From IMG/VR virus record IMGVR_UViG_3300015177_000009, positions 1 through 40,085 of that record: 40,085 nucleotides of DNA, one strand, 5' to 3'. Every line of letters starts with the position of its first letter. Within the stretch, counting starts at the first letter, position 1. Shown in pieces: positions 10,588 through 35,108 of this stretch. This stretch comes from a virus. Lineage: Duplodnaviria > Heunggongvirae > Uroviricota > Caudoviricetes. The translations under genes were made by a program, and so were the position numbers. The notes under the pieces are model-generated. The model had not been told where the DNA came from, did no database searches, and saw only the letters and a list, made by a program, of their open reading frames with translations.

Positions 10588-10620
10588 AATCCCGCCAGTC
10601 GGCGGGATTTGTTGTTTATG
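10588..10620 (+). terminator. Intrinsic terminator ending the dar operon; also abuts the convergent kinase gene
   Basis: Perfect 9-bp stem AATCCCGCC / GGCGGGATT with loop AGTC, followed by TTGTTGTTT. Confidence 0.6.
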
Positions 10621-11920
10621 CCAGGCGGGCTATGCGTATCTTACAATCATCTAGGTGGATGCGTAGCGCTTCTAAACATGGAGTAAAGTTAGCTGAGAAT
10701 TTGTCGGACTCACAGGCCAATGCATAAAATTTTTCAGCCAATTCAAGAGATTCATCCCATATTTTTCGACTTACAAAGTCTGGTAGTGCTGTTTTTCTAA
10801 GCTCATTAGATATTGCTCCCCCAGAGCGTGGAGCAAAACCCATAGGTAACATGTCATAGGCTGGAGCAATATGATATGGGCGTCCGTGGCTACTAATAAA
10901 CGATAGGTTACCATTATGCATATCGGTATTGCCTATTAGCAAACCAAAAGACCATAGCCTTGTTGCTATAATAATCGCATCAGGATGGACGCACTTATTT
11001 TTTACCAACTCTTTAACCAGCAAGGGCCATGTTGCTCTTGCATTCCCAACAAATTCTGCATCAAGTGCACGAAGTGAGAATACACCTACCCGACCTAGTT
11101 GACCAACACGATCAAATCGGGGAATTTCCAAGAATCTCTGACCGTTATAATCAAAAACTTCTGTTTCTACCCCCAGAACTTTTAATGCGAGATGTTCAGC
11201 AAACAAGAGATCTCTCCAACGCTCACTTATAGGGGTGTCGTTAGGCGCAGAGAATTTCACTAATACATGTCCACGCTCTGTGAAAGTACAAAATTTGGGT
11301 TGTTCACCTCCAGCAGATGAACCGGGCACATCACCTTCACCAGCAGCTAAAGCTAATACAGGATATTCACTTTCACGATTAACAGGAACAGGAGGCTGCA
11401 TCTCTAAAAAATGCGTGCGTGCTTGCTCTCCAATTAACAAATTACCAACAACATCATGCCCATGCTTAAGTAAGGCTTTGATCACGTCAGTATCTGACCA
11501 TTGCTCTGGATTTGAGGGAAGGTTAAGTTCAAGAGCATATGCTGATGCATATGCTCTTCCAAGGAAGCCTTGTGGACGCATATCAAATAACCACCAAGGT
11601 AACCCATCGCTATGCCTGTTATTTTTCCCTTCCTCAACCATAACATAGCCTTCTGGCCTCACCGGAATGAGAGTACCAAGAACGCAAATACACCCCTCTT
11701 CAGTTATACGATAAATGGGGACTGATTCGAATCCTCTAAAAGAGTCTCGTAAAGCATATTGAATAGATCTTCCATTTCCGATCCTAACGATTTCATCACC
11801 AAGATCTCTTAATGCTCTAGATATCGTTGGTTGGCTAACACCTAGTCTTTCAACCAATTGTCTTGGTGTCATAGGACCTTGATTGAGCAAATTACGGATT
11901 GTTGTTGCATGTATAGCCAT
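10616..11920 (-). CDS. HipA-family Ser/Thr kinase with fused N-terminal HTH (YjjJ/HipH-like)
   Basis: N-terminal HTH (TPRQLVERLGVSQPTISRALRDLG); HipA-like motifs GEQPKF, IGNTDMHNGNLSF and APAYDM; likely start at MAIHATT (11920), listed ORF extends to 11980; GC about 42 percent, below backbone. Confidence 0.8.
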   Translation of the reverse strand: MAIHATTIRNLLNQGPMTPRQLVERLGVSQPTISRALRDLGDEIVRIGNGRSIQYALRDSFRGFESVPIYRITEEGCICVLGTLIPVRPEGYVMVEEGKNNRHSDGLPWWLFDMRPQGFLGRAYASAYALELNLPSNPEQWSDTDVIKALLKHGHDVVGNLLIGEQARTHFLEMQPPVPVNRESEYPVLALAAGEGDVPGSSAGGEQPKFCTFTERGHVLVKFSAPNDTPISERWRDLLFAEHLALKVLGVETEVFDYNGQRFLEIPRFDRVGQLGRVGVFSLRALDAEFVGNARATWPLLVKELVKNKCVHPDAIIIATRLWSFGLLIGNTDMHNGNLSFISSHGRPYHIAPAYDMLPMGFAPRSGGAISNELRKTALPDFVSRKIWDESLELAEKFYALACESDKFSANFTPCLEALRIHLDDCKIRIARLA

Positions 11921-12117
11921 AGTTTTAATTACTATTGTGAATAGATTAATGAATAGATTCATGAATGCGTACAATAGCAAGCAAAACGGGAGGTGTCACT
12001 AATTTAGGTAAGTTAAAAAGACTTCTTTAAAAGATGATGACTAGGCGCTTTAACTGCTAGCTGACATAACAATTGGCCATTTGACGTGGAGTTCCCCGCC
12101 AACTGACGGGGTTTTTA

Positions 12118-24940: not shown

Positions 24941-26077
24941 CTATCCTTCGTTACGAAGATGCTTATCTAAGAATTTTGTAAACTGGTTTGTTGAGCCAAA
25001 ATAGTTGGGGTAGGCTTTTTTTAGTGACTTAATGTTATCTGTAGCAACGAGAACAGATATCAATACATTAGGATCAGAATCGTCTTTATTTAAGGCCTCA
25101 AGGGCTTCATCTGCTTCTTTTGTTTTAAATGCGCGAACAGACACTAGGAACATTTTTTTGTTTTTTGTATTGGGCTTGTTTTCTGCATTTCTCATTGTTA
25201 CTAAGTAATGCCCCTTATGATTTTTTGGCAACTTCTTAATCAAATTCGCGTCAGAAGTTAAATTTAAGGCGAGGGTGTATGTGCTTAGTTTCCTCCGTAC
25301 AGATAAAGTCCGTTCCAGCTCTTTAAGCTCGCCTTCATACTGAGATACAACCAGCTCATCAAGAGTGCAGGCTTTTTCGTCGTGCGCTACAAGACATCCG
25401 GCTAGATAGAAAAATCGTCTCCATTCTGGATGCCCTTCACTTGAAGTTTTCAGCTTGATACCTTCAAGGGTATCAATTATTTCAAGGCTAGTAGCCCAAG
25501 CATGCTGCAATTGAGTTCTTAACTGTATCTCAATCTTTGTTTTTCGCCACGGATATTGCTCCTCTTTCTGATCGAAGCAACTGTATGCAAGGTGGATTCC
25601 ACTATAGCCGCTGTCTTTGGGAGTAAGATAATCATACTCTTTAACAATCCTATGAACAGATTTGCTTTTTAAAAGACGTTCCTTTAGCTGTATCAACTGG
25701 TCTAAGTTTCTGACAATGGCCCTACATCCGCCAACGTCCTGCATCCGTGTTAATTTAATTGCATTGCTAGTTCTGCCTCCATCAAGACTAGGACGCTCTA
25801 GTTTATCTATTATGGTAGAAAGTCGCTTAAGTCTTCTTGCAACGAGAATCTTTTTGTCTTTGTCAACCTTAGCAGCTGCTCTTGCTAAATGATTTTTCAT
25901 GAGCATTAATGGATAAAGATGCAGCTCACGGAAATTTTGTATCATTTCAATAGCTTGCTGCCTTTCTTCGTCACTACACCCGTGCCTTATCAATTGAGCA
26001 GCCCTATCAATTTGAGATTTTGAATATTTCAACTTGCATTTTTGACTTTGATAAACTTCATTCCCCATTGCTTTCAT
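24941..26077 (-). CDS. Fused toxin-antitoxin with RelA/SpoT-homologue (toxSAS) domain, CapRel-like
   Basis: Synthetase-fold motifs GGRTSNAIKL…DVGGCRAIV and YSGIHLAYS…EIQLRTQLQHAWA; about 120-aa C-terminal extension; GC about 35 percent; occupies the P1 res/mod locus. Confidence 0.7.
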   Translation of the reverse strand: MKAMGNEVYQSQKCKLKYSKSQIDRAAQLIRHGCSDEERQQAIEMIQNFRELHLYPLMLMKNHLARAAAKVDKDKKILVARRLKRLSTIIDKLERPSLDGGRTSNAIKLTRMQDVGGCRAIVRNLDQLIQLKERLLKSKSVHRIVKEYDYLTPKDSGYSGIHLAYSCFDQKEEQYPWRKTKIEIQLRTQLQHAWATSLEIIDTLEGIKLKTSSEGHPEWRRFFYLAGCLVAHDEKACTLDELVVSQYEGELKELERTLSVRRKLSTYTLALNLTSDANLIKKLPKNHKGHYLVTMRNAENKPNTKNKKMFLVSVRAFKTKEADEALEALNKDDSDPNVLISVLVATDNIKSLKKAYPNYFGSTNQFTKFLDKHLRNEG

Positions 26078-26970: not shown

Positions 26971-27720
26971 TCAACATTTTTGTTTTTGAGGATTAAATTT
27001 TTTGTCTAGATTATGAGCTAACTCACTAACCTTTTTGCGATTATCCGAATATAAATCACTTAGAATAAAATTCATTATCTCGTATGAGTTATCCAAGTCA
27101 TCTGCGGTAACTTTTTCATAGCGGTGGCTACCCGCATTTCCAAGAAACTTAATCGCAAATAACAGGCTTTTAAAGCCAGAATGTTCACTAGGGATCATCT
27201 CAATTCTATTATGGAGGTTAATTCTATTCCCATTTTCGCTTGTTTCAGTTACCCCGATAGCAGTAAGTAACCGTTCTACAGATGTTCTTATTAGATTTGC
27301 AGCGGCACCTGGATGAATTGTGCTTAGTGCAAACGAGGTGTTTATAGGCAAGGCTATGTCTTCAGGGCACATGTTCGGGATAAGAAATAGCTTTAACGCA
27401 GGAGTAAAACTTAATGGTTCATACCAGCGATAGTAACTAAGCCCTTTATGTTCGCACCAATCTTGTTCTAGACCACTTCTGCCGATACATGCCACTACCT
27501 CCTTACATTGAGGTCTTACGCACTGTGACATACAACTGAATACCGAGCTTGTATACTCTAAGTCAAACCATTCTTCACCCTCCATTTTGACAGTTTCAGC
27601 TGTATCCTTACAGATGAAAGATTCATCTAAAATTTTTAAAGTTGTTTGCCCACAATTAGGACATGGCCATTCAACCATTTTGTTGTCCCAAAATTTTTTG
27701 GGGATTTTGTGTATTGTCAT
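26971..27720 (-). CDS. Cys-rich zinc-ribbon-like N-terminus fused to DUF4145/HEPN-like C-terminal domain; candidate defence protein
   Basis: N-terminal Cys cluster (CPNCG, then C-x3-C-x4-C-x5-C); C-terminal IRTSVERLL…FLGNAGSHRYEKVTADDLDNSYEIMNFILSDLY resembles the DUF4145 signature (R..GN.aaH) as I recall it; GC about 32 percent; has its own terminator. Confidence 0.6.
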   Translation of the reverse strand: MTIHKIPKKFWDNKMVEWPCPNCGQTTLKILDESFICKDTAETVKMEGEEWFDLEYTSSVFSCMSQCVRPQCKEVVACIGRSGLEQDWCEHKGLSYYRWYEPLSFTPALKLFLIPNMCPEDIALPINTSFALSTIHPGAAANLIRTSVERLLTAIGVTETSENGNRINLHNRIEMIPSEHSGFKSLLFAIKFLGNAGSHRYEKVTADDLDNSYEIMNFILSDLYSDNRKKVSELAHNLDKKFNPQKQKC

Positions 27721-28864: not shown

Positions 28865-29896
28865 CTAATCGCCATCTTCCAGCAGGCGCACCATTGCCCC
28901 CGTTTCACTATCCAGGTTACGAATGTAGTTCATGACAATATTTACGTTGGTCCAGCCACCAGCTTGCATGATCTCCGGTATAGAAACTCCGGCGCGGGCC
29001 ATATCTCGCGCGGCACCGACACGGGCACTATGTCCAGACCAGGCCAGGTATCGCTGACCAGAGTCATCTTTTGCCCCGTAAATCAATCGGTGAGTTGCTT
29101 CAAAAATCCCTTCCAGGGCGCGAGTTGATAGCTGGCTGGTGGATGATGGAGCGGCAACACCATTTTTTCTGACGCGGCAAAACAGGTAGTTATTCGGATC
29201 ATCAGCTACACCAGAGACAGAAATCCATCGCTCAACCAGTTTAGTTACCCCCAGGCTAAGTGCCTTCTCTACACCAGCGGTGCTAACCAGCGTTTTCGTT
29301 CTGCCAATATGGATTAACATTCTCCCACCGTCAGTACGTGAGATATCTTTAACCCTGATCCTGGCAATTTCGGCTATACGTAACAGGGTGTTATAAGCAA
29401 TCCCCAGAAATGCCAGATTACGTATATCCTGGCAGCGATCGCTATTTTCCATGAGTGAACGAACCTGGTCGAAATCAGTGCGTTCGAACGCTAGAGCCTG
29501 TTTTGCACGTTCACCGGCATCAACGTTTTCTTTTCGGATCCGCCGCATAACCAGTGAAACAGCATTGCTGTCACTTGGTCGTGGCAGCCCGGACCGACGA
29601 TGAAGCATGTTTAGCTGGCCCAAATGTTGCTGGATAGTTTTTACTGCCAGACCGCGCGCCTGAAGATATAGAAGATAATCGCGAACATCTTCAGGTTCTG
29701 CGGGAAACCACTTCCGGTTATTCAACTTGCACCATGCCGCCCACGACCGGCAAACGGACAGAAGCATTTTCCAGGTATGCTCAGAAAACGCCTGGCGATC
29801 CCTGAACATGTCCATCAGGTTCTTGCGAACCTCATCACTCGTTGCATCGACCGGTAATGCAGGCAAATTTTGGTGTACGGTCAGTAAATTGGACAT
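28865..29896 (-). CDS. cre: Cre tyrosine recombinase
   Basis: 343 aa; matches the P1 Cre sequence as I recall it (MSNLLTVHQNLPALPVD…MVRLLEDGD), including the catalytic Tyr context NIVMNYIRN. Confidence 0.97.
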   Translation of the reverse strand: MSNLLTVHQNLPALPVDATSDEVRKNLMDMFRDRQAFSEHTWKMLLSVCRSWAAWCKLNNRKWFPAEPEDVRDYLLYLQARGLAVKTIQQHLGQLNMLHRRSGLPRPSDSNAVSLVMRRIRKENVDAGERAKQALAFERTDFDQVRSLMENSDRCQDIRNLAFLGIAYNTLLRIAEIARIRVKDISRTDGGRMLIHIGRTKTLVSTAGVEKALSLGVTKLVERWISVSGVADDPNNYLFCRVRKNGVAAPSSTSQLSTRALEGIFEATHRLIYGAKDDSGQRYLAWSGHSARVGAARDMARAGVSIPEIMQAGGWTNVNIVMNYIRNLDSETGAMVRLLEDGD

Positions 29897-31048: not shown

Positions 31049-31900
31049 ATGATAAATTATGTCTACGGCGAACAACTGTACCAGGAGTTCGTCAGCTTCA
31101 GGGATCTCTTTCTAAAAAAAGCTGTTGCACGCGCCCAACACGTTGATACAGCCAGCGACGGTCGTCCTGTACGCCCGGTTGTCGTTCTACCGTTCAAAGA
31201 AACTGACAGCATTCAGGCTGAAATTGATAAATGGACTTTAATGGCGCGGGAACTGGAACAGTACCCAGACCTCAATATCCCAAAGACTATTTTATATCCA
31301 GTGCCTAACATCCTTCGCGGTGTGCGTAAGGTTACAACTTATCAGACAGAAGCTGTGAACAGCGTCAACATGACCGCTGGCCGCATTATTCATCTGATTG
31401 ATAAGGACATTCGCATCCAAAAAAGCGCGGGGATCAATGAGCACAGTGCGAAATACATAGAGAACCTGGAAGCAACAAAAGAGCTAATGAAGCAGTACCC
31501 GGAGGATGAAAAATTCCGTATGCGCGTACACGGCTTTAGCGAAACAATGCTGCGCGTCCACTACATTTCCAGTAGCCCTAACTACAATGATGGTAAATCA
31601 GTTAGTTACCATGTGCCACTGTGTGGCGTGTTTATCTGCGATGAAACTCTCCGTGATGGAATCATCATCAACGGTGAATTCGAAAAAGCAAAATTTAGCC
31701 TTTATGACTCCATAGAACCGATCATCTGCGACCGCTGGCCGCAAGCAAAAATATATCGCCTGGCAGATATTGAAAATGTAAAAAAACAAATTGCCATCAC
31801 TCGCGAAGAGAAAAAGGTTAAGTCAGCCGCATCAGTTACGCGCAGCCGTAAAACCAAGAAGGGGCAGCCAGTAAACGACAACCCCGAAAGCGCGCAATAA
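31049..31900 (+). CDS. c1: C1 repressor of lysis
   Basis: 283 aa; N-terminus MINYVYGEQLYQEFVSFRDLFLKK matches P1 C1 as I recall it; GGAGGAGG ribosome-binding site. Confidence 0.93.
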   Translation: MINYVYGEQLYQEFVSFRDLFLKKAVARAQHVDTASDGRPVRPVVVLPFKETDSIQAEIDKWTLMARELEQYPDLNIPKTILYPVPNILRGVRKVTTYQTEAVNSVNMTAGRIIHLIDKDIRIQKSAGINEHSAKYIENLEATKELMKQYPEDEKFRMRVHGFSETMLRVHYISSSPNYNDGKSVSYHVPLCGVFICDETLRDGIIINGEFEKAKFSLYDSIEPIICDRWPQAKIYRLADIENVKKQIAITREEKKVKSAASVTRSRKTKKGQPVNDNPESAQ

Positions 31901-31932
31901 ATTATGCCCGGCATCAACCGGGCATTCTTCCA
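31901..31932. terminator. Bidirectional hairpin terminator between convergent c1 and the antirepressor-like gene
   Basis: 8-bp stem ATGCCCGG / CCGGGCAT with loop CATCAA; T-rich on both sides. Confidence 0.5.
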
Positions 31933-33045
31933 TTATTCAGCCGCCACCGGTTTTAACAAGCCAGCATCGAGCAGTTTACGCGTCAACCACTGCTGGCCTT
32001 TACCCGTTAATTGAGGCGTCAACCGTATCTGGTAGCCATCTTCATCATCCAGCACCACTTCTTTCACCGTGAAATACCCCGCATTGATGTACTGCTGGAA
32101 CGGCACATTTTTACGTCCACCGGACGCTATCAGGATGCCGTTCTCCCGTAACCAGGCAAACAGCGCGTTTTGCTTAAGTCCAACAACCTTTGCAAAATTC
32201 CCAATCAGGATCCCTTTAGCTACTGATACCCGGTCGGCAAAATCGACTTTAGGAGCGGCGGCCACCAGCTGCTGATTTAGCTGGTGGGCTTTCTGTTCCA
32301 GAAGCTGCTTTTGTTCAGCCAGTTCGGCAGCCAGGCGCAGAGCTTCTGGAAGCGTCTGGGGGATTGCAACCGGTTGCTGTTCTTTTTGCCGGAAGTAGCT
32401 GTCTTCCAGTTTTTCAAAGAATGCCCATGCTTCATTTGTGTCCACGATCTTAGACATGCGTGCAGCGCCGCGCTCTGTCCAGAGTGTAAGGCTTCTGGCG
32501 TTCTTACCAACAGAGTAACTTCCGGTTACTCTGTTCTTAAATTCTCTTAATTTTAAACCAGTTAGAAGAAAGTAATGCTTACCTTCTTCAAAGCGGTCAA
32601 GGTTGCGAGACAAATTGTTGCGAATATTGGCTTCATCGACCCCATACCCTCTAGCAAGAGTTTCGGTTGTCACGACACGTACTCCCTGCCATTCCAGAAC
32701 GGGAATTTCATCCGGCTGATTCTGAACAACCACCAGTTCCGATTCCTGAACTGAAGGTGCATAAATTTTTTCTGATTTAACGTTAGTTGCTTTCATTCTG
32801 TGTGCCTCCTTGCGTGCTTCGGCTGCGACGGTTGCGTAATTCAGATGACCCTGTTCGAGCAGGTATTCACGGATATCGGTTAGCAGAATGCGGTGAACCG
32901 CGTGTTTGTCCTTTCTCCGGTAAAGTTGTTTGGTGATCATGAAGTAGTTGGCAATAACGCCCGGTATATCCCTGGTACTGATACAGGCAGTGTGCTGTTC
33001 AATTGCCTCGATCATCTCTTCACGGGTGACTAATGACGTTCTCAT
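31933..33045 (-). CDS. Antirepressor-like protein (ORF6N/Bro-N-like central domain plus KilA-C/ANT-like C-terminus)
   Basis: Central GVRVVTTETLARGYGVDEANIRNNLSRN…HYFLLTG and C-terminal VSVAKGILIGNFAKVVGLKQNALFAWLRENGIL resemble phage antirepressor domains; ATGA overlap with the upstream small ORF. Confidence 0.65.
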   Translation of the reverse strand: MRTSLVTREEMIEAIEQHTACISTRDIPGVIANYFMITKQLYRRKDKHAVHRILLTDIREYLLEQGHLNYATVAAEARKEAHRMKATNVKSEKIYAPSVQESELVVVQNQPDEIPVLEWQGVRVVTTETLARGYGVDEANIRNNLSRNLDRFEEGKHYFLLTGLKLREFKNRVTGSYSVGKNARSLTLWTERGAARMSKIVDTNEAWAFFEKLEDSYFRQKEQQPVAIPQTLPEALRLAAELAEQKQLLEQKAHQLNQQLVAAAPKVDFADRVSVAKGILIGNFAKVVGLKQNALFAWLRENGILIASGGRKNVPFQQYINAGYFTVKEVVLDDEDGYQIRLTPQLTGKGQQWLTRKLLDAGLLKPVAAE

Positions 33046-33263
33046 AGTCCCTCCTGAGCAGAAGCGTTAACAGGGAGGCACCAGTAACTGAGAGAATTGC
33101 GCGAATCGGTAGAAAAGCGGGCAGAGAAAATACAGGGAGCATCCGGAAGCTGAGAACGTGCCTCATCTTCTGTCGGTGCAATAACGAAGTGATAGTGACG
33201 TTTTTGGCAGGAGTAAAAGCGCCAGATAAATTCAGAATGAGCAGGGGTAGGGATAGTAGCCAC
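33042..33263 (-). CDS. Small protein translationally coupled to the antirepressor-like gene
   Basis: 73-aa ORF with AAGGAGG ribosome-binding site about 8 nt before its GTG start; stop overlaps the downstream ATG. Confidence 0.45.
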   Translation of the reverse strand: MATIPTPAHSEFIWRFYSCQKRHYHFVIAPTEDEARSQLPDAPCIFSARFSTDSRNSLSYWCLPVNASAQEGL

Positions 33264-33448
33264 AATGGCAGCCTCCTTTTGCTAATTTAAGGAGCTACCG
33301 CGTGAGGTCTCAATCTCAATGGCGGTAGCACTGACTGGGTTGAGACTACCGGCGCAAAAGGGAACCGGCCTGCCTTTCGGCAGCCCAGCCAGCACTACCA
33401 TTGATCTCTGAGCTAAACGCTACGTATGGCTGTGCGATGGCATGACAC

Positions 33449-33471
33449 AAAAAAAAGACGCTTTTGGCGTC
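33449..33471 (-). terminator. Intrinsic terminator downstream of pacB
   Basis: On the minus strand: GACGC-CAAAA-GCGTC hairpin followed by eight T. Confidence 0.6.
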
Positions 33472-33603
33472 TGTGTCGCCTTTTGCATTATCCGGGGTCT
33501 CAATCCCGGCACCCGTTTTAATGAGGTGCCTGATAAGCATAAACCGAAAATGCCTCAAGGCGCAAGAGGTCAGGTTCAATGTAACATCGGCAGTTAAAAA
33601 ACA

Positions 33604-33620
33604 CAATTTATTAGAGCAAA
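33604..33620 (-). promoter_or_regulatory. C1 repressor operator immediately after the pacB stop codon
   Basis: CAATTTATTAGAGCAAA, about 15 of 17. Confidence 0.65.
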
Positions 33621-33623
33621 TAT

Positions 33624-35108
33624 TCATTCATTAAGCCATGCCAGAGCTTCATCAACCTGCGCTTCGTCTTCGACGCTAAGCACTTCATCCTGGGGAACAT
33701 AATCCGCCAGCATAGCGAAACAATATGTATCCCAATGGTCTGGTGAGTGCAGGTTGAGTTTTTTCTTCATATCCTCCTTACTCATCACCTTCCATTGACC
33801 TGCGGAGTTAATCCCTACAGGGATTTTCGACGCTTCCTCAATAGTTTCATTACCCTTATCCAGTCTCATACGACCAGATTTTACGGCCTCTGCGGCTTGA
33901 ACGTTGGCATAAGCACGTTTATCAAAGTACAGGCTCTTATCTTCACGGCTATGCATCTTTTTACCCCAGCGTATACGCTGTACGGTAATACCATAATACT
34001 CGTACATCAGATCCGCCGTTGCTTTACCCAGGCCATCGCCGTCTATCGCTATGGTGATATTTGGGAATCGCTCAGGATTACATTCTGCGAAAATTTTGGC
34101 GGCAAGCTGCGTTTCTGTAACGTCTGTGTATTCCAGCATTCGATAGTTGATTACACGGCGTTTATTTCGCTGGCCGGACACCATCATGATATTGATAACG
34201 GACTTATCCCGTCCCGTACCACCAGCAACGTCCACACATGCAAGCCAGCCCCATCCTTTGGCAATCTTGACTTTCCGCCGCGTTGCGCGTTCAACCTCAT
34301 CACGTCCAAGAAGGAAGCCATCCTGTGATTTAGGGAATAGGCCGCGTACCTTAATCATGTACATAGGGTTATCACGCCCGCCGTACTCCGCCAGCTTCAT
34401 TTTGATAAATGCTGGCGTTACCAGCGGTGATTCCTCACTGTTAAGCGTGATCGCCGTATAAACGCCATCAGGGTTACCAGGACGCTTGGCCAGTTTATGG
34501 TGTGTATCGTAGAAATAGCCGCTTGGGCGTGTAGGCTGTGACAGTAATAAGATGCGGTTATCCTGTCCGGTAAGAGCACCGGTGATGATACCGAAAGCTC
34601 TATCACTGACACCGGAGGCTTCATCGATAATATACAGAAGATGATCTGCGTGTTCACCGGCGAGAGCTTCTTCACTTCCCAGACGAAAGCCCTTCGGTAC
34701 TACAGTCCATACACCTTTACCAGTAACCTCATAGAAAGCGGTTTCTGTCAGAACAAAATAATCAGCAAGCCATGGGAAACGGCTGGTGGCAGTAGCCCAG
34801 TTTATCTTGATGTACTTGAATATACCGGTCATTACCTGCTGAATTTTGTTCGCAACGATAATAGCGCGGGCACCGGGATACATGATTATGAACAACATGA
34901 TCATGATAGAAGTCATGTCTGATTTCCCGGTACCGTGACCAGACGAAACAGATGTCTTGCTACCCTGTTCCTGCACAGACTCAATAATCAGATCCTGCTG
35001 CCAGGTAGGTGTTTTGCCGAACAAAACATCAGCGGCCGCAATCCAGTCATAACGATATAGCGCCACCAGCTCGCGCCAACGTGGATCCGTTACGCAACTT
35101 CTGGCCAT
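33624..35108 (-). CDS. pacB: Terminase / pacase large subunit PacB
   Basis: 494-aa ORF overlapping the pacA stop; size and position match P1 PacB. Confidence 0.88.

What the first reader, a model, noticed from the sequence alone, without database searches (positions are those of the whole stretch)
31933..33300. Two-gene operon (small ORF plus antirepressor-like protein) between c1 and pacB
A 73-aa ORF with a strong AAGGAGG ribosome-binding site is translationally coupled (ATGA overlap) to a 370-aa protein with ORF6N/Bro-N-like and KilA-C/ANT-like regions. The pair is convergent with c1 and shares a bidirectional hairpin with it. A sigma70-like promoter candidate (TTGAGA, 17 bp, TTAAAT) lies just upstream of the small ORF. 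From memory, canonical P1 has no sizeable gene between pacB and c1, so this may be extra cargo placed next to the immunity region, where an antirepressor could modulate C1 or a co-resident prophage repressor.
Basis: partly seen in the sequence, partly recalled or inferred. Interest (0 to 1): 0.55.

Follow-up and report, generated by a model that had tools for sequence, protein, structure and literature searches.

The report
Second antisense-RNA-gated antirepressor cassette in P1-like plasmid
The two genes are the protein-coding end of a complete second copy of phage P1's "immI" switch (C1 operator, decoy leader RNA, C4 antisense RNA, icd, ant) sitting between c1 and pacB; the cassette is common, already annotated in hundreds of P1-like plasmids, and of a well-understood kind.

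Summary
A 73-aa ORF (33263-33042, minus strand) overlaps by ATGA a 370-aa ORF6N+KilAC protein (33045-31933). P1 has only a 24-bp spacer at this position.

The whole 1,723-bp insert (31901-33623) is an immI-type cassette. It has a C1 operator-like site, an IsrK-like leader RNA carrying decoy sites a1/b1 and a terminator, and a C4 antisense RNA (Rfam 75 bits). Target sites a2/b2 follow, with b2 lying over the Shine-Dalgarno sequence. Then come an Icd homologue, an Ant1 homologue with a conserved internal Ant2 start, and a hairpin shared with c1.

C4 loops co-vary with a1/b1 and a2/b2 across 10 phages (about 96% paired, 9-10 of 15 pairs compensatory).

All four sequenced plasmids I checked also keep the canonical immI, with a non-matching C4 specificity.

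The cassette spans c1 to pacB in 301 of 5,426 complete E. coli genomes. RefSeq annotates it, and Venturini 2019 noted the insertion. Verdict: real, functional-looking and already known. Low interest, apart from a modest observation about combinatorial C4 specificities.

The parts
31901..33623 (-). Whole cassette: 1,723 bp that replace the 24-bp pacB-c1 spacer of P1
   Evidence: BLAST of the P1 junction: homology stops at the c1 stop codon (31900) and resumes at the pacB stop codon (33624).
33604..33620 (-). C1 operator-like site TTTGCTCTAATAAATTG (15 of 17 matches to the consensus), the counterpart of P1 Oc4/Op51
   Evidence: Consensus search: 10 sites with up to 3 mismatches in the window against 0.21 expected, and this one has 2 mismatches. 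It sits 39 nt upstream of the predicted downstream -35, the same spacing as Oc4 to P1c4 in P1. C1 binding was not tested.
33578..33606 (-). Inferred upstream promoter (TTGTGT, 17 nt, TACATT) overlapping the operator, the counterpart of P1 P2c4/P51a
   Evidence: Position relative to the operator mirrors P1. The hexamers are weak. Inference only.
33536..33565 (-). Inferred main promoter (TTGCGC, 18 nt, TATGCT) ending 6 nt before the IsrK-like 5' end, the counterpart of P1 P1c4/P51b
   Evidence: TTGCG(C/T) and TATxxT are kept at the same place in cassettes with three different upstream contexts (pacB, canonical immI, D6). Coordinates. Inference only.
33451..33529 (-). IsrK-like leader RNA: two hairpins, a1 TTGAGAC (33503-33497, in the hairpin-2 loop), b1 GCAAAAGG (33486-33479), and an intrinsic terminator (stem 33472-33456 plus a U-run)
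   Evidence: Rfam RF01394: 59 bits against a gathering score of 50. Terminator from the scan. a1/b1 co-vary with the C4 loops: 95.9% paired, 9 of 15 pairs compensatory, 0 of 500 shuffles as high.
33318..33405 (-). C4 antisense RNA; recognition loop b' CCTTTTGC (33361-33354) and single-stranded a' GTCTCAA (33346-33340)
   Evidence: Rfam RF01695: 75 bits against a gathering score of 45. MFE -46.4 kcal/mol, z -5.6, with b' in a hairpin loop and a' unpaired.
33272..33313 (-). icd leader with C4 target sites a2 TTGAGAC (33313-33307) and b2 GCAAAAGG (33282-33275); b2 overlaps the Shine-Dalgarno sequence AAGGAGG (33278-33272)
   Evidence: Perfect complementarity to a'/b'. Covariation over 10 sequences: 96.6% paired, 10 of 15 pairs compensatory, 0 of 500 shuffles as high, and slid controls 23-51%.
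33042..33263 (-). icd-like gene, 73 aa, GTG start (ATG at the same codon in sister cassettes)
   Evidence: Aligns without gaps to P1 Icd (also 73 aa); most residues from position 11 onward are identical. NCBIfam phage_ICD_like 49.9 bits. pN/pS about 0.08-0.10 against sister cassettes.
31933..33045 (-). ant1-like antirepressor gene, 370 aa: Ant1-type N-terminus, ORF6N middle, KilAC C-terminus
   Evidence: Pfam. Alignment to P1 Ant1: N- and C-terminal parts homologous, middle part replaced. pN/pS 0.22.
31933..32796 (-). Predicted ant2-like internal product, 287 aa, starting at ATG 32796
   Evidence: The start context AAGGAGGCACACAGAATG matches the P1 ant2 start context AAGGAGGCACATAGAATG. Expression was not tested.
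31904..31925 (.). GC-rich hairpin between the ant and c1 stop codons; likely a bidirectional terminator; it belongs to the insert, not to P1
   Evidence: Folds on both strands at z -4.4 and -4.7. Terminator-like on the minus strand. Absent from the P1 spacer.

Best explanation
The interval 31901-33623 is a complete, intact immI-type immunity cassette. It is a second copy of the P1 c4-icd-ant switch, of the IsrK/D6 subtype, and it replaces the pacB-c1 spacer.

Proposed mechanism:
1. Transcription starts just downstream of the pacB stop. One promoter overlaps a C1 operator. A second, probably constitutive, promoter lies 39 nt further on.
2. Many transcripts stop at the terminator of the 79-nt IsrK-like leader. 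Read-through transcripts carry the C4 RNA, which is cut out.
3. C4 pairs through its b' loop and a' segment with b2 (covering the icd Shine-Dalgarno sequence) and a2. This blocks icd translation.
4. Because ant is translationally coupled to icd (ATGA overlap), and by analogy with P1 is subject to Rho polarity, no antirepressor is made during lysogeny.
5. The leader RNA carries identical sites a1/b1. It can therefore titrate C4 and set the threshold.
6. When C4 is outcompeted or absent, for example just after entry into a cell that lacks a matching C4, Icd and the Ant1/Ant2-like proteins are made.
7. Ant most likely inactivates the C1 repressor.

What is shown here: the anatomy, the homologies, and the co-varying RNA pairings. 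What is inferred from P1 and Gifsy-1 experiments: C4 processing, polarity, the decoy role of the leader, and C1 as the target.
For: - RNA genes: Rfam C4 (75 bits) and isrK (59 bits) lie in tandem upstream of the ORFs on the same strand. The same tandem is found in RCS47 and JL22.
- P1 parallel: P1 immI has the same order, Oc4, promoters, a1 b1, c4, a2 b2, icd (73 aa), ant1/ant2, with the same 4-nt overlap.
- Protein homology: Icd and Ant homology. The internal ant2 start and its Shine-Dalgarno sequence are conserved.
- Operator: present with P1-like spacing to the promoter.
- Complementarity: C4 a'/b' are perfectly complementary to a1/b1 and a2/b2 in the window.
- Covariation: across 10 cassettes from P1-like plasmids, D6, Stx2 phage F039, APSE-7, phiP27 and a Klebsiella phage, these pairings are kept at about 96% with 9-10 of 15 pairs compensatory.
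- Wider sample: in 69 of 71 IMG/VR loci, a1, a', a2 and b1, b', b2 all match.
- Selection: purifying selection on both ORFs.
- Target: C1 is 281/283 identical to P1 C1, and most residues of the Ant C-terminal domain are identical to P1 Ant.
- Experimental precedent: in Gifsy-1, IsrK over-expression switches on translation of the downstream coupled antirepressor and induces the prophage (PMC4825925).
Against: - No expression data were examined for this cassette.
- The predicted promoters are weak (7 of 12 consensus matches) and were not picked up by the consensus scan.
- The middle domain of Ant differs from P1 Ant1 (ORF6N instead of a region with no Pfam match). Target specificity could therefore differ.
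- The Rfam model for the P1-type a1b1 leader (RF03163) does not hit the window. The leader is a different family, isrK, and its decoy role rests on sequence logic and one Salmonella study.
- D6 drives a quite different (Rha-type) antirepressor from a 95-97% identical regulatory module. The regulatory part therefore does not dictate the target.
Confidence: 0.8

Rival explanations
1. One reading: an autonomous two-gene operon driven by its own sigma-70 promoter (TTGAGA, 17 nt, TTAAAT) immediately upstream of the small ORF.
For: The hexamers exist, and the scan tool lists the site (as TTGAGA-18-TAAATT) with 9 of 12 consensus matches.
Against: - Promoter-like sites in the region are at chance level: 3 found against 1.7 +/- 1.4 expected.
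- The -35 is exactly the a2 site. It mutates together with the C4 a' segment in relatives (TTGGAAC, TTGGTCT, TTAGGAC), and the -10 region is not conserved.
- P1 annotates no promoter at the equivalent place.
Confidence: 0.06
2. Same cassette, different purpose. Its main role is inter-phage conflict rather than self-induction. The extra C4 gives immunity against relatives that use that C4 specificity. The extra Ant, which escapes a resident's non-matching C4, lets the element break the C1 immunity of resident P1-like prophages (or other repressors) on superinfection.
For: - Four of four plasmids checked carry both modules with non-matching recognition sequences.
- All four a x b allele combinations occur at the pacB-c1 locus (15, 6, 7 and 4 of 32 loci). 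This suggests diversifying selection on specificity.
- P1/P7 heteroimmunity is known to rest on c4 differences (PMC6906374 and PMC12197685).
Against: Nothing here separates this from the main explanation; the two are compatible. There are no infection data. Targeting of lambdoid or other repressors has no support beyond the swapped ORF6N domain.
Confidence: 0.3
3. A decaying, non-functional duplicate of immI picked up by recombination.
For: It is dispensable: P1, P7 and phiW39 lack it. One IMG/VR contig looks like a recombinant between the two immI copies (L057).
Against: - Both ORFs are intact in the cassettes examined and are annotated as intact genes in the RefSeq records listed.
- pN/pS is 0.08-0.22.
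- Three-way compensatory changes are maintained in the RNA sites.
- The start-codon position and the internal start are conserved.
Confidence: 0.03

Closest known systems
Phage P1/P7 immI operon (Oc4, P51a/b, a1 b1, c4 RNA, a2 b2, icd, ant1/ant2)
   Same: - Same order and strand logic.
- C1 operator 39 nt before the second promoter.
- C4-family RNA with two recognition segments; the b2 target lies over the icd Shine-Dalgarno sequence.
- Icd of 73 aa with a 4-nt overlap onto ant.
- Internal ant2 start with the same Shine-Dalgarno sequence.
- KilAC C-terminus with most residues identical.
   Different: - Location: between pacB and c1 instead of between sim and kilA.
- The leader belongs to the isrK family, not the c4-a1b1 family.
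- Recognition sequences are TTGAGAC/GCAAAAGG against TTGACAG/GTTAGTG.
- The middle domain of Ant is ORF6N.
- It co-exists with the canonical immI rather than replacing it.
Phage D6 immI-like region (orf83 icd, orf82 antirepressor)
   Same: The stretch from the isrK-like RNA through C4 to the first part of icd is 95-97% identical, with the same recognition sequences as the window.
   Different: D6 has no C1 operator in the aligned upstream region. Its antirepressor is Rha-type without KilAC. Its genomic context also differs (ref upstream).
Gifsy-1 isrK-orf45-anrP-isrJ locus of Salmonella (Hershko-Shalev 2016, PMC4825925)
   Same: - IsrK-family RNA with its own terminator.
- Read-through into a processed roughly 80-nt RNA (STnc1160/orf45') that is complementary to IsrK.
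- A downstream antirepressor coupled by an AUGA overlap.
- The authors liken IsrK to P4 SeqA and STnc1160 to P4 CI RNA.
   Different: - No icd gene in Gifsy-1. The authors read the C4-equivalent region as a 45-codon ORF.
- The output there is AntQ antiterminator expression.
- I could not retrieve the Gifsy-1 sequence, so the equivalence of STnc1160 and C4 is inferred from positions (one search found no Salmonella record).
The same cassette in RCS47, JL22, pTZ20_1P and about 300 other P1-like plasmids
   Same: 99.7% (pGF31-A), 99.2% (JL22) and 95% (RCS47) identical over the c1-to-pacB interval. Venturini 2019 states that two short ORFs and an ant gene are inserted between pacB and c1 in pTZ20_1P and RCS47.
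   Different: None of substance. Public annotations list the proteins but not the two RNAs or the operator. They also add ORFs that overlap these elements: 'ash family protein' overlaps C4, JL22 gp120 overlaps the isrK-like RNA, and JL22 gp121 is in the wrong frame over icd.

Membership tests
P1-type immI operon | C4-family antisense RNA encoded upstream of, and co-oriented with, the genes it represses | tested here: met
   RF01695 at 33405-33318 (-), 75 bits against a gathering score of 45.
P1-type immI operon | Two target sites (a2, b2) complementary to the C4 loops, with b2 over the ribosome-binding site of the first ORF | tested here: met
   7-nt and 8-nt perfect matches; b2 overlaps AAGGAGG. 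Covariation 96.6% paired, 10 of 15 pairs compensatory.
P1-type immI operon | Upstream copies of the targets (a1, b1) in the leader | tested here: met
   TTGAGAC at 33503-33497 and GCAAAAGG at 33486-33479. Covariation 95.9% paired.
P1-type immI operon | icd homologue whose stop codon overlaps the ant start codon | tested here: met
   Gap-free alignment to P1 Icd, NF033153 at 49.9 bits, and an ATGA overlap.
P1-type immI operon | Antirepressor made as two products (Ant1 plus the internally initiated Ant2) | tested here: inconclusive
   The internal ATG and its Shine-Dalgarno sequence are conserved with P1 at nucleotide level. The protein products were not observed.
P1-type immI operon | C1-controlled operator at the operon promoter | tested here: met
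   A 15/17 operator match at 33620-33604 with P1-like geometry. This is sequence evidence only; binding was not tested.
P1-type immI operon | C4 released by RNase P; Rho-dependent polarity on ant; Ant binds and inactivates C1 | not testable with these tools
   These need biochemistry or genetics.
Rfam isrK (RF01394) | Score at or above the gathering threshold for the covariance model | tested here: met
   59 bits against 50, full length 1-77.
Rfam isrK (RF01394) | Hfq binding; trans-activation of downstream antirepressor translation | not testable with these tools
   Known only for Gifsy-1 (PMC4825925).
Rfam c4-a1b1 (RF03163) | Score at or above the gathering threshold | tested here: not met
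   No hit in the window, whereas P1 scores 51 against 46.7. The window leader is functionally analogous but belongs to another RNA family.
Pfam ANT/KilAC (PF03374) and ORF6N (PF10543) | Domain scores above the gathering thresholds | tested here: met
   109.3 bits against 25.3, and 66.6 bits against 27.8.
   Chance-level count. The hexamers vary with the C4 loops.

The most novel reading that the evidence does not exclude
P1-like phage-plasmids routinely carry two mutually orthogonal C4-gated antirepressor switches. Their recognition code is combinatorial (a-allele x b-allele, each held at three co-evolving sites) and under diversifying selection. The pacB-c1 copy would act as a second key and lock in superinfection contests between related plasmid prophages. 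The IsrK-type leader would be the general C4 decoy, linking the P1, P4 and Gifsy-1 paradigms.
Probability: 0.35. Interest if true: 0.45.

Novelty: already known. Interest (0 to 1): 0.22.

Why it matters
For genome annotation, the 1.7-kb interval should be read as one regulatory unit. That unit has two RNA genes and an operator that current records omit, and the three small ORFs that overlap those elements are probably spurious.

For biology, about 300 sequenced E. coli P1-like plasmids, many of them antibiotic-resistance carriers, have two independent antirepressor switches. This should affect when they induce and which relatives they exclude or provoke.

None of this changes the known picture of how immI-type switches work.

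Tried and rejected
- **Whole-molecule RNAduplex energies** between C4 variants and leaders. These were uninformative, because the method ignores intramolecular structure and one slice was mis-set. I replaced them with direct loop/target comparison and covariation counts.
Rejected; see the membership test.
- **Alternative ORFs.** I rejected the 81-aa TTG ORF 33265-33020 (annotated as JL22 gp121), the 93-aa ORF 33627-33346 (JL22 gp120 lies over part of it), and the 39-aa 'ash family protein' ORF 33401-33282. The first is out of frame with the Icd homology. The others lie over the isrK-like RNA and C4, and the 'ash' ORF has no NCBIfam hit.
- **Gifsy-1 sequence.** I looked for it in the phage collection using the Rfam isrK consensus, to map the published compensatory pairs onto a1:a'. 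No Salmonella record was returned, so that equivalence stays an inference.
- **Literature search** for experimental work on this second ant gene. I found only the descriptive note in PMC6906374.
Full report
**What is there**

The window is a P1-like phage-plasmid. It carries cre (28865-29896, -), coi, c1 (31049-31900, +), pacB (33624-35108, -), pacA and lpa.

- A 73-aa GTG ORF lies at 33263-33042 (-), preceded by AAGGAGG.
- It overlaps by ATGA a 370-aa ORF at 33045-31933 (-).
- Pfam finds ORF6N (E 2.5e-18) and ANT/KilAC (E 1.5e-31) in the large protein.
- A GC-rich hairpin at 31904-31925 lies between its stop codon and that of the convergent c1. It folds far better than shuffles on both strands.

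In the P1 reference, pacB ends at 93206 and c1 ends at 93231. Only 24 bp separate them. Alignment shows that homology to P1 stops exactly at the c1 stop codon and resumes exactly at the pacB stop codon. So 1,723 bp (31901-33623) replace the spacer.

**The unit is bigger than the finding**

An Rfam scan of the window gives two hits at gathering threshold. Both lie between the small ORF and pacB, on the same strand as the ORFs.
- A C4 antisense RNA at 33405-33318 (75 bits, threshold 45).
- An isrK-family RNA at 33529-33451 (59 bits, threshold 50).

The annotated P1 immI region has the following order: operator Oc4, promoters P2c4 and P1c4, sites a1 and b1, c4 RNA, sites a2 and b2, icd (73 aa), then ant1 overlapping icd by 4 nt, with ant2 starting internally. 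The window cassette reproduces every element.
- The small ORF aligns without gaps to P1 Icd, which is also 73 aa. It also hits NCBIfam phage_ICD_like at 49.9 bits against a cut-off of 25.
- The large protein aligns with P1 Ant1 over its N-terminal part and over the C-terminal KilAC part, where most residues are identical. The middle part is exchanged for an ORF6N domain.
- The internal ant2 start is conserved down to the Shine-Dalgarno sequence: AAGGAGGCACACAGAATG here against AAGGAGGCACATAGAATG in P1. This predicts a 287-aa second product starting at 32796.
- A C1 operator-like 17-mer (TTTGCTCTAATAAATTG, 2 mismatches) lies at 33620-33604. Operator-like sites are about 50-fold enriched in the window. 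This one sits 39 nt before the predicted main -35, the same spacing as Oc4 to P1c4 in P1.

C4 folds as expected: -46.4 kcal/mol, z -5.6. CCUUUUGC sits in a hairpin loop (b') and GUCUCAA in a single-stranded joint (a'). Perfect complements occur twice.
- In the IsrK-like leader: a1 TTGAGAC in the loop of hairpin 2, and b1 GCAAAAGG. Both lie upstream of an intrinsic terminator.
- In front of icd: a2 TTGAGAC at 33313-33307, and b2 GCAAAAGG at 33282-33275, which overlaps the Shine-Dalgarno sequence.

Promoter-like matches in the region are at chance level: 3 found against 1.7 expected.

I aligned ten cassettes, from P1-like plasmids, D6, Stx2 phage F039, APSE-7, phiP27 and a Klebsiella phage. The recognition sequences differ widely between them:
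- a sites: TTGAGAC, TTGGAAC, TTGGCCT/TTGGTCT, TTAGGAC.
- b sites: GCAAAAGG, GTCAAAGG, GTCTAAGG, AATCAAGG, TAACAAGG, GCTCAAGG, TACAAAGG.

All three copies change together.
- C4 with a2/b2: 96.6% of cells paired, 10 of 15 pairs with compensatory changes, 0 of 500 shuffles as high, and slid controls at 23-51%.
- C4 with a1/b1: 95.9% paired, 9 of 15 pairs compensatory.

This is strong comparative evidence that these pairings are functional. It also shows that the hexamer is an RNA target, not a promoter element.

The more likely promoter, TTGCGC-18-TATGCT, ends 6 nt before the IsrK-like 5' end. It is kept in cassettes with three different upstream contexts, but it remains an inference.

**How it most likely works**

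Three steps are taken from P1 work as summarised in the record annotations and in reviews.
- C4 is processed from the operon transcript.
- C4 masks the icd ribosome-binding site.
- Loss of icd translation prevents ant expression.

A further step is taken from the Gifsy-1 study. There, the short IsrK RNA in trans turns on translation of the downstream, AUGA-coupled antirepressor more than 100-fold and induces the prophage. The authors themselves compare IsrK with P4 SeqA, and the processed downstream RNA STnc1160 with P4 CI RNA (PMC4825925).

Applied here, C4 keeps icd-ant silent. The IsrK-like RNA, which carries the same two target sequences, competes for C4. When C4 is insufficient, Icd and Ant1/Ant2-like proteins are made.

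C1 in the window is 281/283 identical to P1 C1, and the Ant C-terminal domain is close to that of P1. C1 is therefore the most probable target, but this is untested.

Both ORFs are under purifying selection: pN/pS is about 0.08-0.10 for icd and 0.22 for ant.

**Two switches per genome**

The canonical immI lies outside the window. In all four sequenced plasmids I checked that carry this cassette, the canonical c4-icd-ant-kilA locus is also present, with different recognition sequences.

| Plasmid | Identity to window cassette | Canonical immI (a / b) | pacB-c1 cassette (a / b) |
|---|---|---|---|
| JL22 | 99.2% | TTGACAG / GATTGTG | TTGAGAC / GCAAAAGG |
| pGF31-A | 99.7% | TTGACAG / GATTGTG | TTGAGAC / GCAAAAGG |
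| pEC6030_3 | 93.8% | TTAGCAG / ACGAATG | TTGGAAC / GTCAAAGG |
| pMTY1887 | 88.4% | TTAGCAG / GATTGTG | TTGGCCT (a2 TTGGTCT) / GTCTAAGG |

The two C4 RNAs should therefore not cross-react.

A pattern scan of IMG/VR returned 71 loci of the IsrK/D6 subtype. At the pacB-c1 locus all four combinations of two a-alleles and two b-alleles occur (15, 6, 7 and 4 loci). In 69 of the 71 loci the three copies of each site agree.

**Is it known?**

Yes.
- The interval from c1 to pacB is covered at 80% or more in 308 PLSDB records and in 301 of 5,426 complete E. coli genomes.
- RefSeq annotates the pair as 'host cell division inhibitor Icd-like protein' and 'phage antirepressor KilAC domain-containing protein'.
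- RCS47 annotates 'ant'.
- Venturini et al. 2019 state that two short ORFs and an ant gene are inserted between pacB and c1 in pTZ20_1P and RCS47 (PMC6906374).
- A second c4-icd region has been noted in D6-like plasmids (PMC6799933).
- GenBank records for APSE-7 and Stx2 phage F039 annotate isrK and C4 side by side.

What the public records of this cassette lack are the two RNA genes, the operator and the target sites. They also carry small ORFs that overlap the RNAs or lie in the wrong frame over icd.

**Verdict**

It is an extra antirepressor module relative to P1, but it is not a bare two-gene operon, not driven by the proposed promoter, and not rare. It is a complete, intact-looking second immI cassette of a well-characterised kind. 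Interest is low. The combinatorial, three-site co-varying C4 specificities and the regular pairing of two orthogonal switches are the only aspects a specialist might want to follow up.

Noticed in passing
window 33329-33322 with 33301-33294 (minus strand): The 3' strand of the C4 closing stem (GCTACCGC) can also pair with a downstream segment (GCGGTAGC) lying between a2 and b2. Across 10 phages this alternative helix is 95% paired, with 4 of 8 pairs compensatory and slid controls at 29-61%. It may be a precursor conformation that competes with mature C4 or positions the targets in cis.
   Followed up: partly
window 33255-33320 (minus strand): The icd leader can fold so that CUCCUU (33294-33289 region) pairs with the Shine-Dalgarno sequence AAGGAG. 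This would sequester the ribosome-binding site even without C4. The fold is not significant on its own (z -1.5).
   Followed up: no
L057 (IMG/VR contig 2778261639_000014) and L064: Two of 71 loci are hybrids in which a1 does not match a'/a2. L057 has pacB upstream and P1-type kilA downstream, as expected from recombination between the two directly repeated immI copies of one plasmid.
   Followed up: no
L088 12875-13260, L089 10710-11090, L090 15109-15500, L006 43280-43655: The canonical immI loci of P1-like plasmids also show mix-and-match specificities: a is TTGACAG or TTAGCAG, and b is GTTAGTG, GATTGTG or ACGAATG. In each case a1/b1 follow the C4 loops.
   Followed up: partly
window 33282-33401 (-), 33346-33627 (-), 33020-33265 (-): ORFs annotated in public records as 'ash family protein', JL22 gp120 and JL22 gp121 overlap the C4 RNA, the isrK-like RNA, and the icd gene (in the wrong frame). 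They are probably annotation artefacts.
   Followed up: partly
window 10616-11980 (-): A 454-aa protein with an N-terminal winged-helix (MarR/ArsR-like) domain fused to a HipA_C kinase domain. It lies in a segment that does not match JL22. It is a possible toxin or defence cargo.
   Followed up: no
window 24941-26077 (-) and 26971-27720 (-): A RelA/SpoT-domain protein (378 aa) and a DUF4145 protein (249 aa) occupy the variable region near mat and cre, where P1 has res/mod. Neither matches JL22. They are candidate defence cargo.
   Followed up: no
L013 2242-2889, L015 about 2250 onward: In Stx2 phage F039 and phiP27, the gene that follows isrK-C4 starts with the same leader and the same first codons (MATIP / MATVP) as the Icd-like protein here, but then continues as a longer, different protein. 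The 5' end of the first gene seems to travel with the regulatory RNA module.
   Followed up: no
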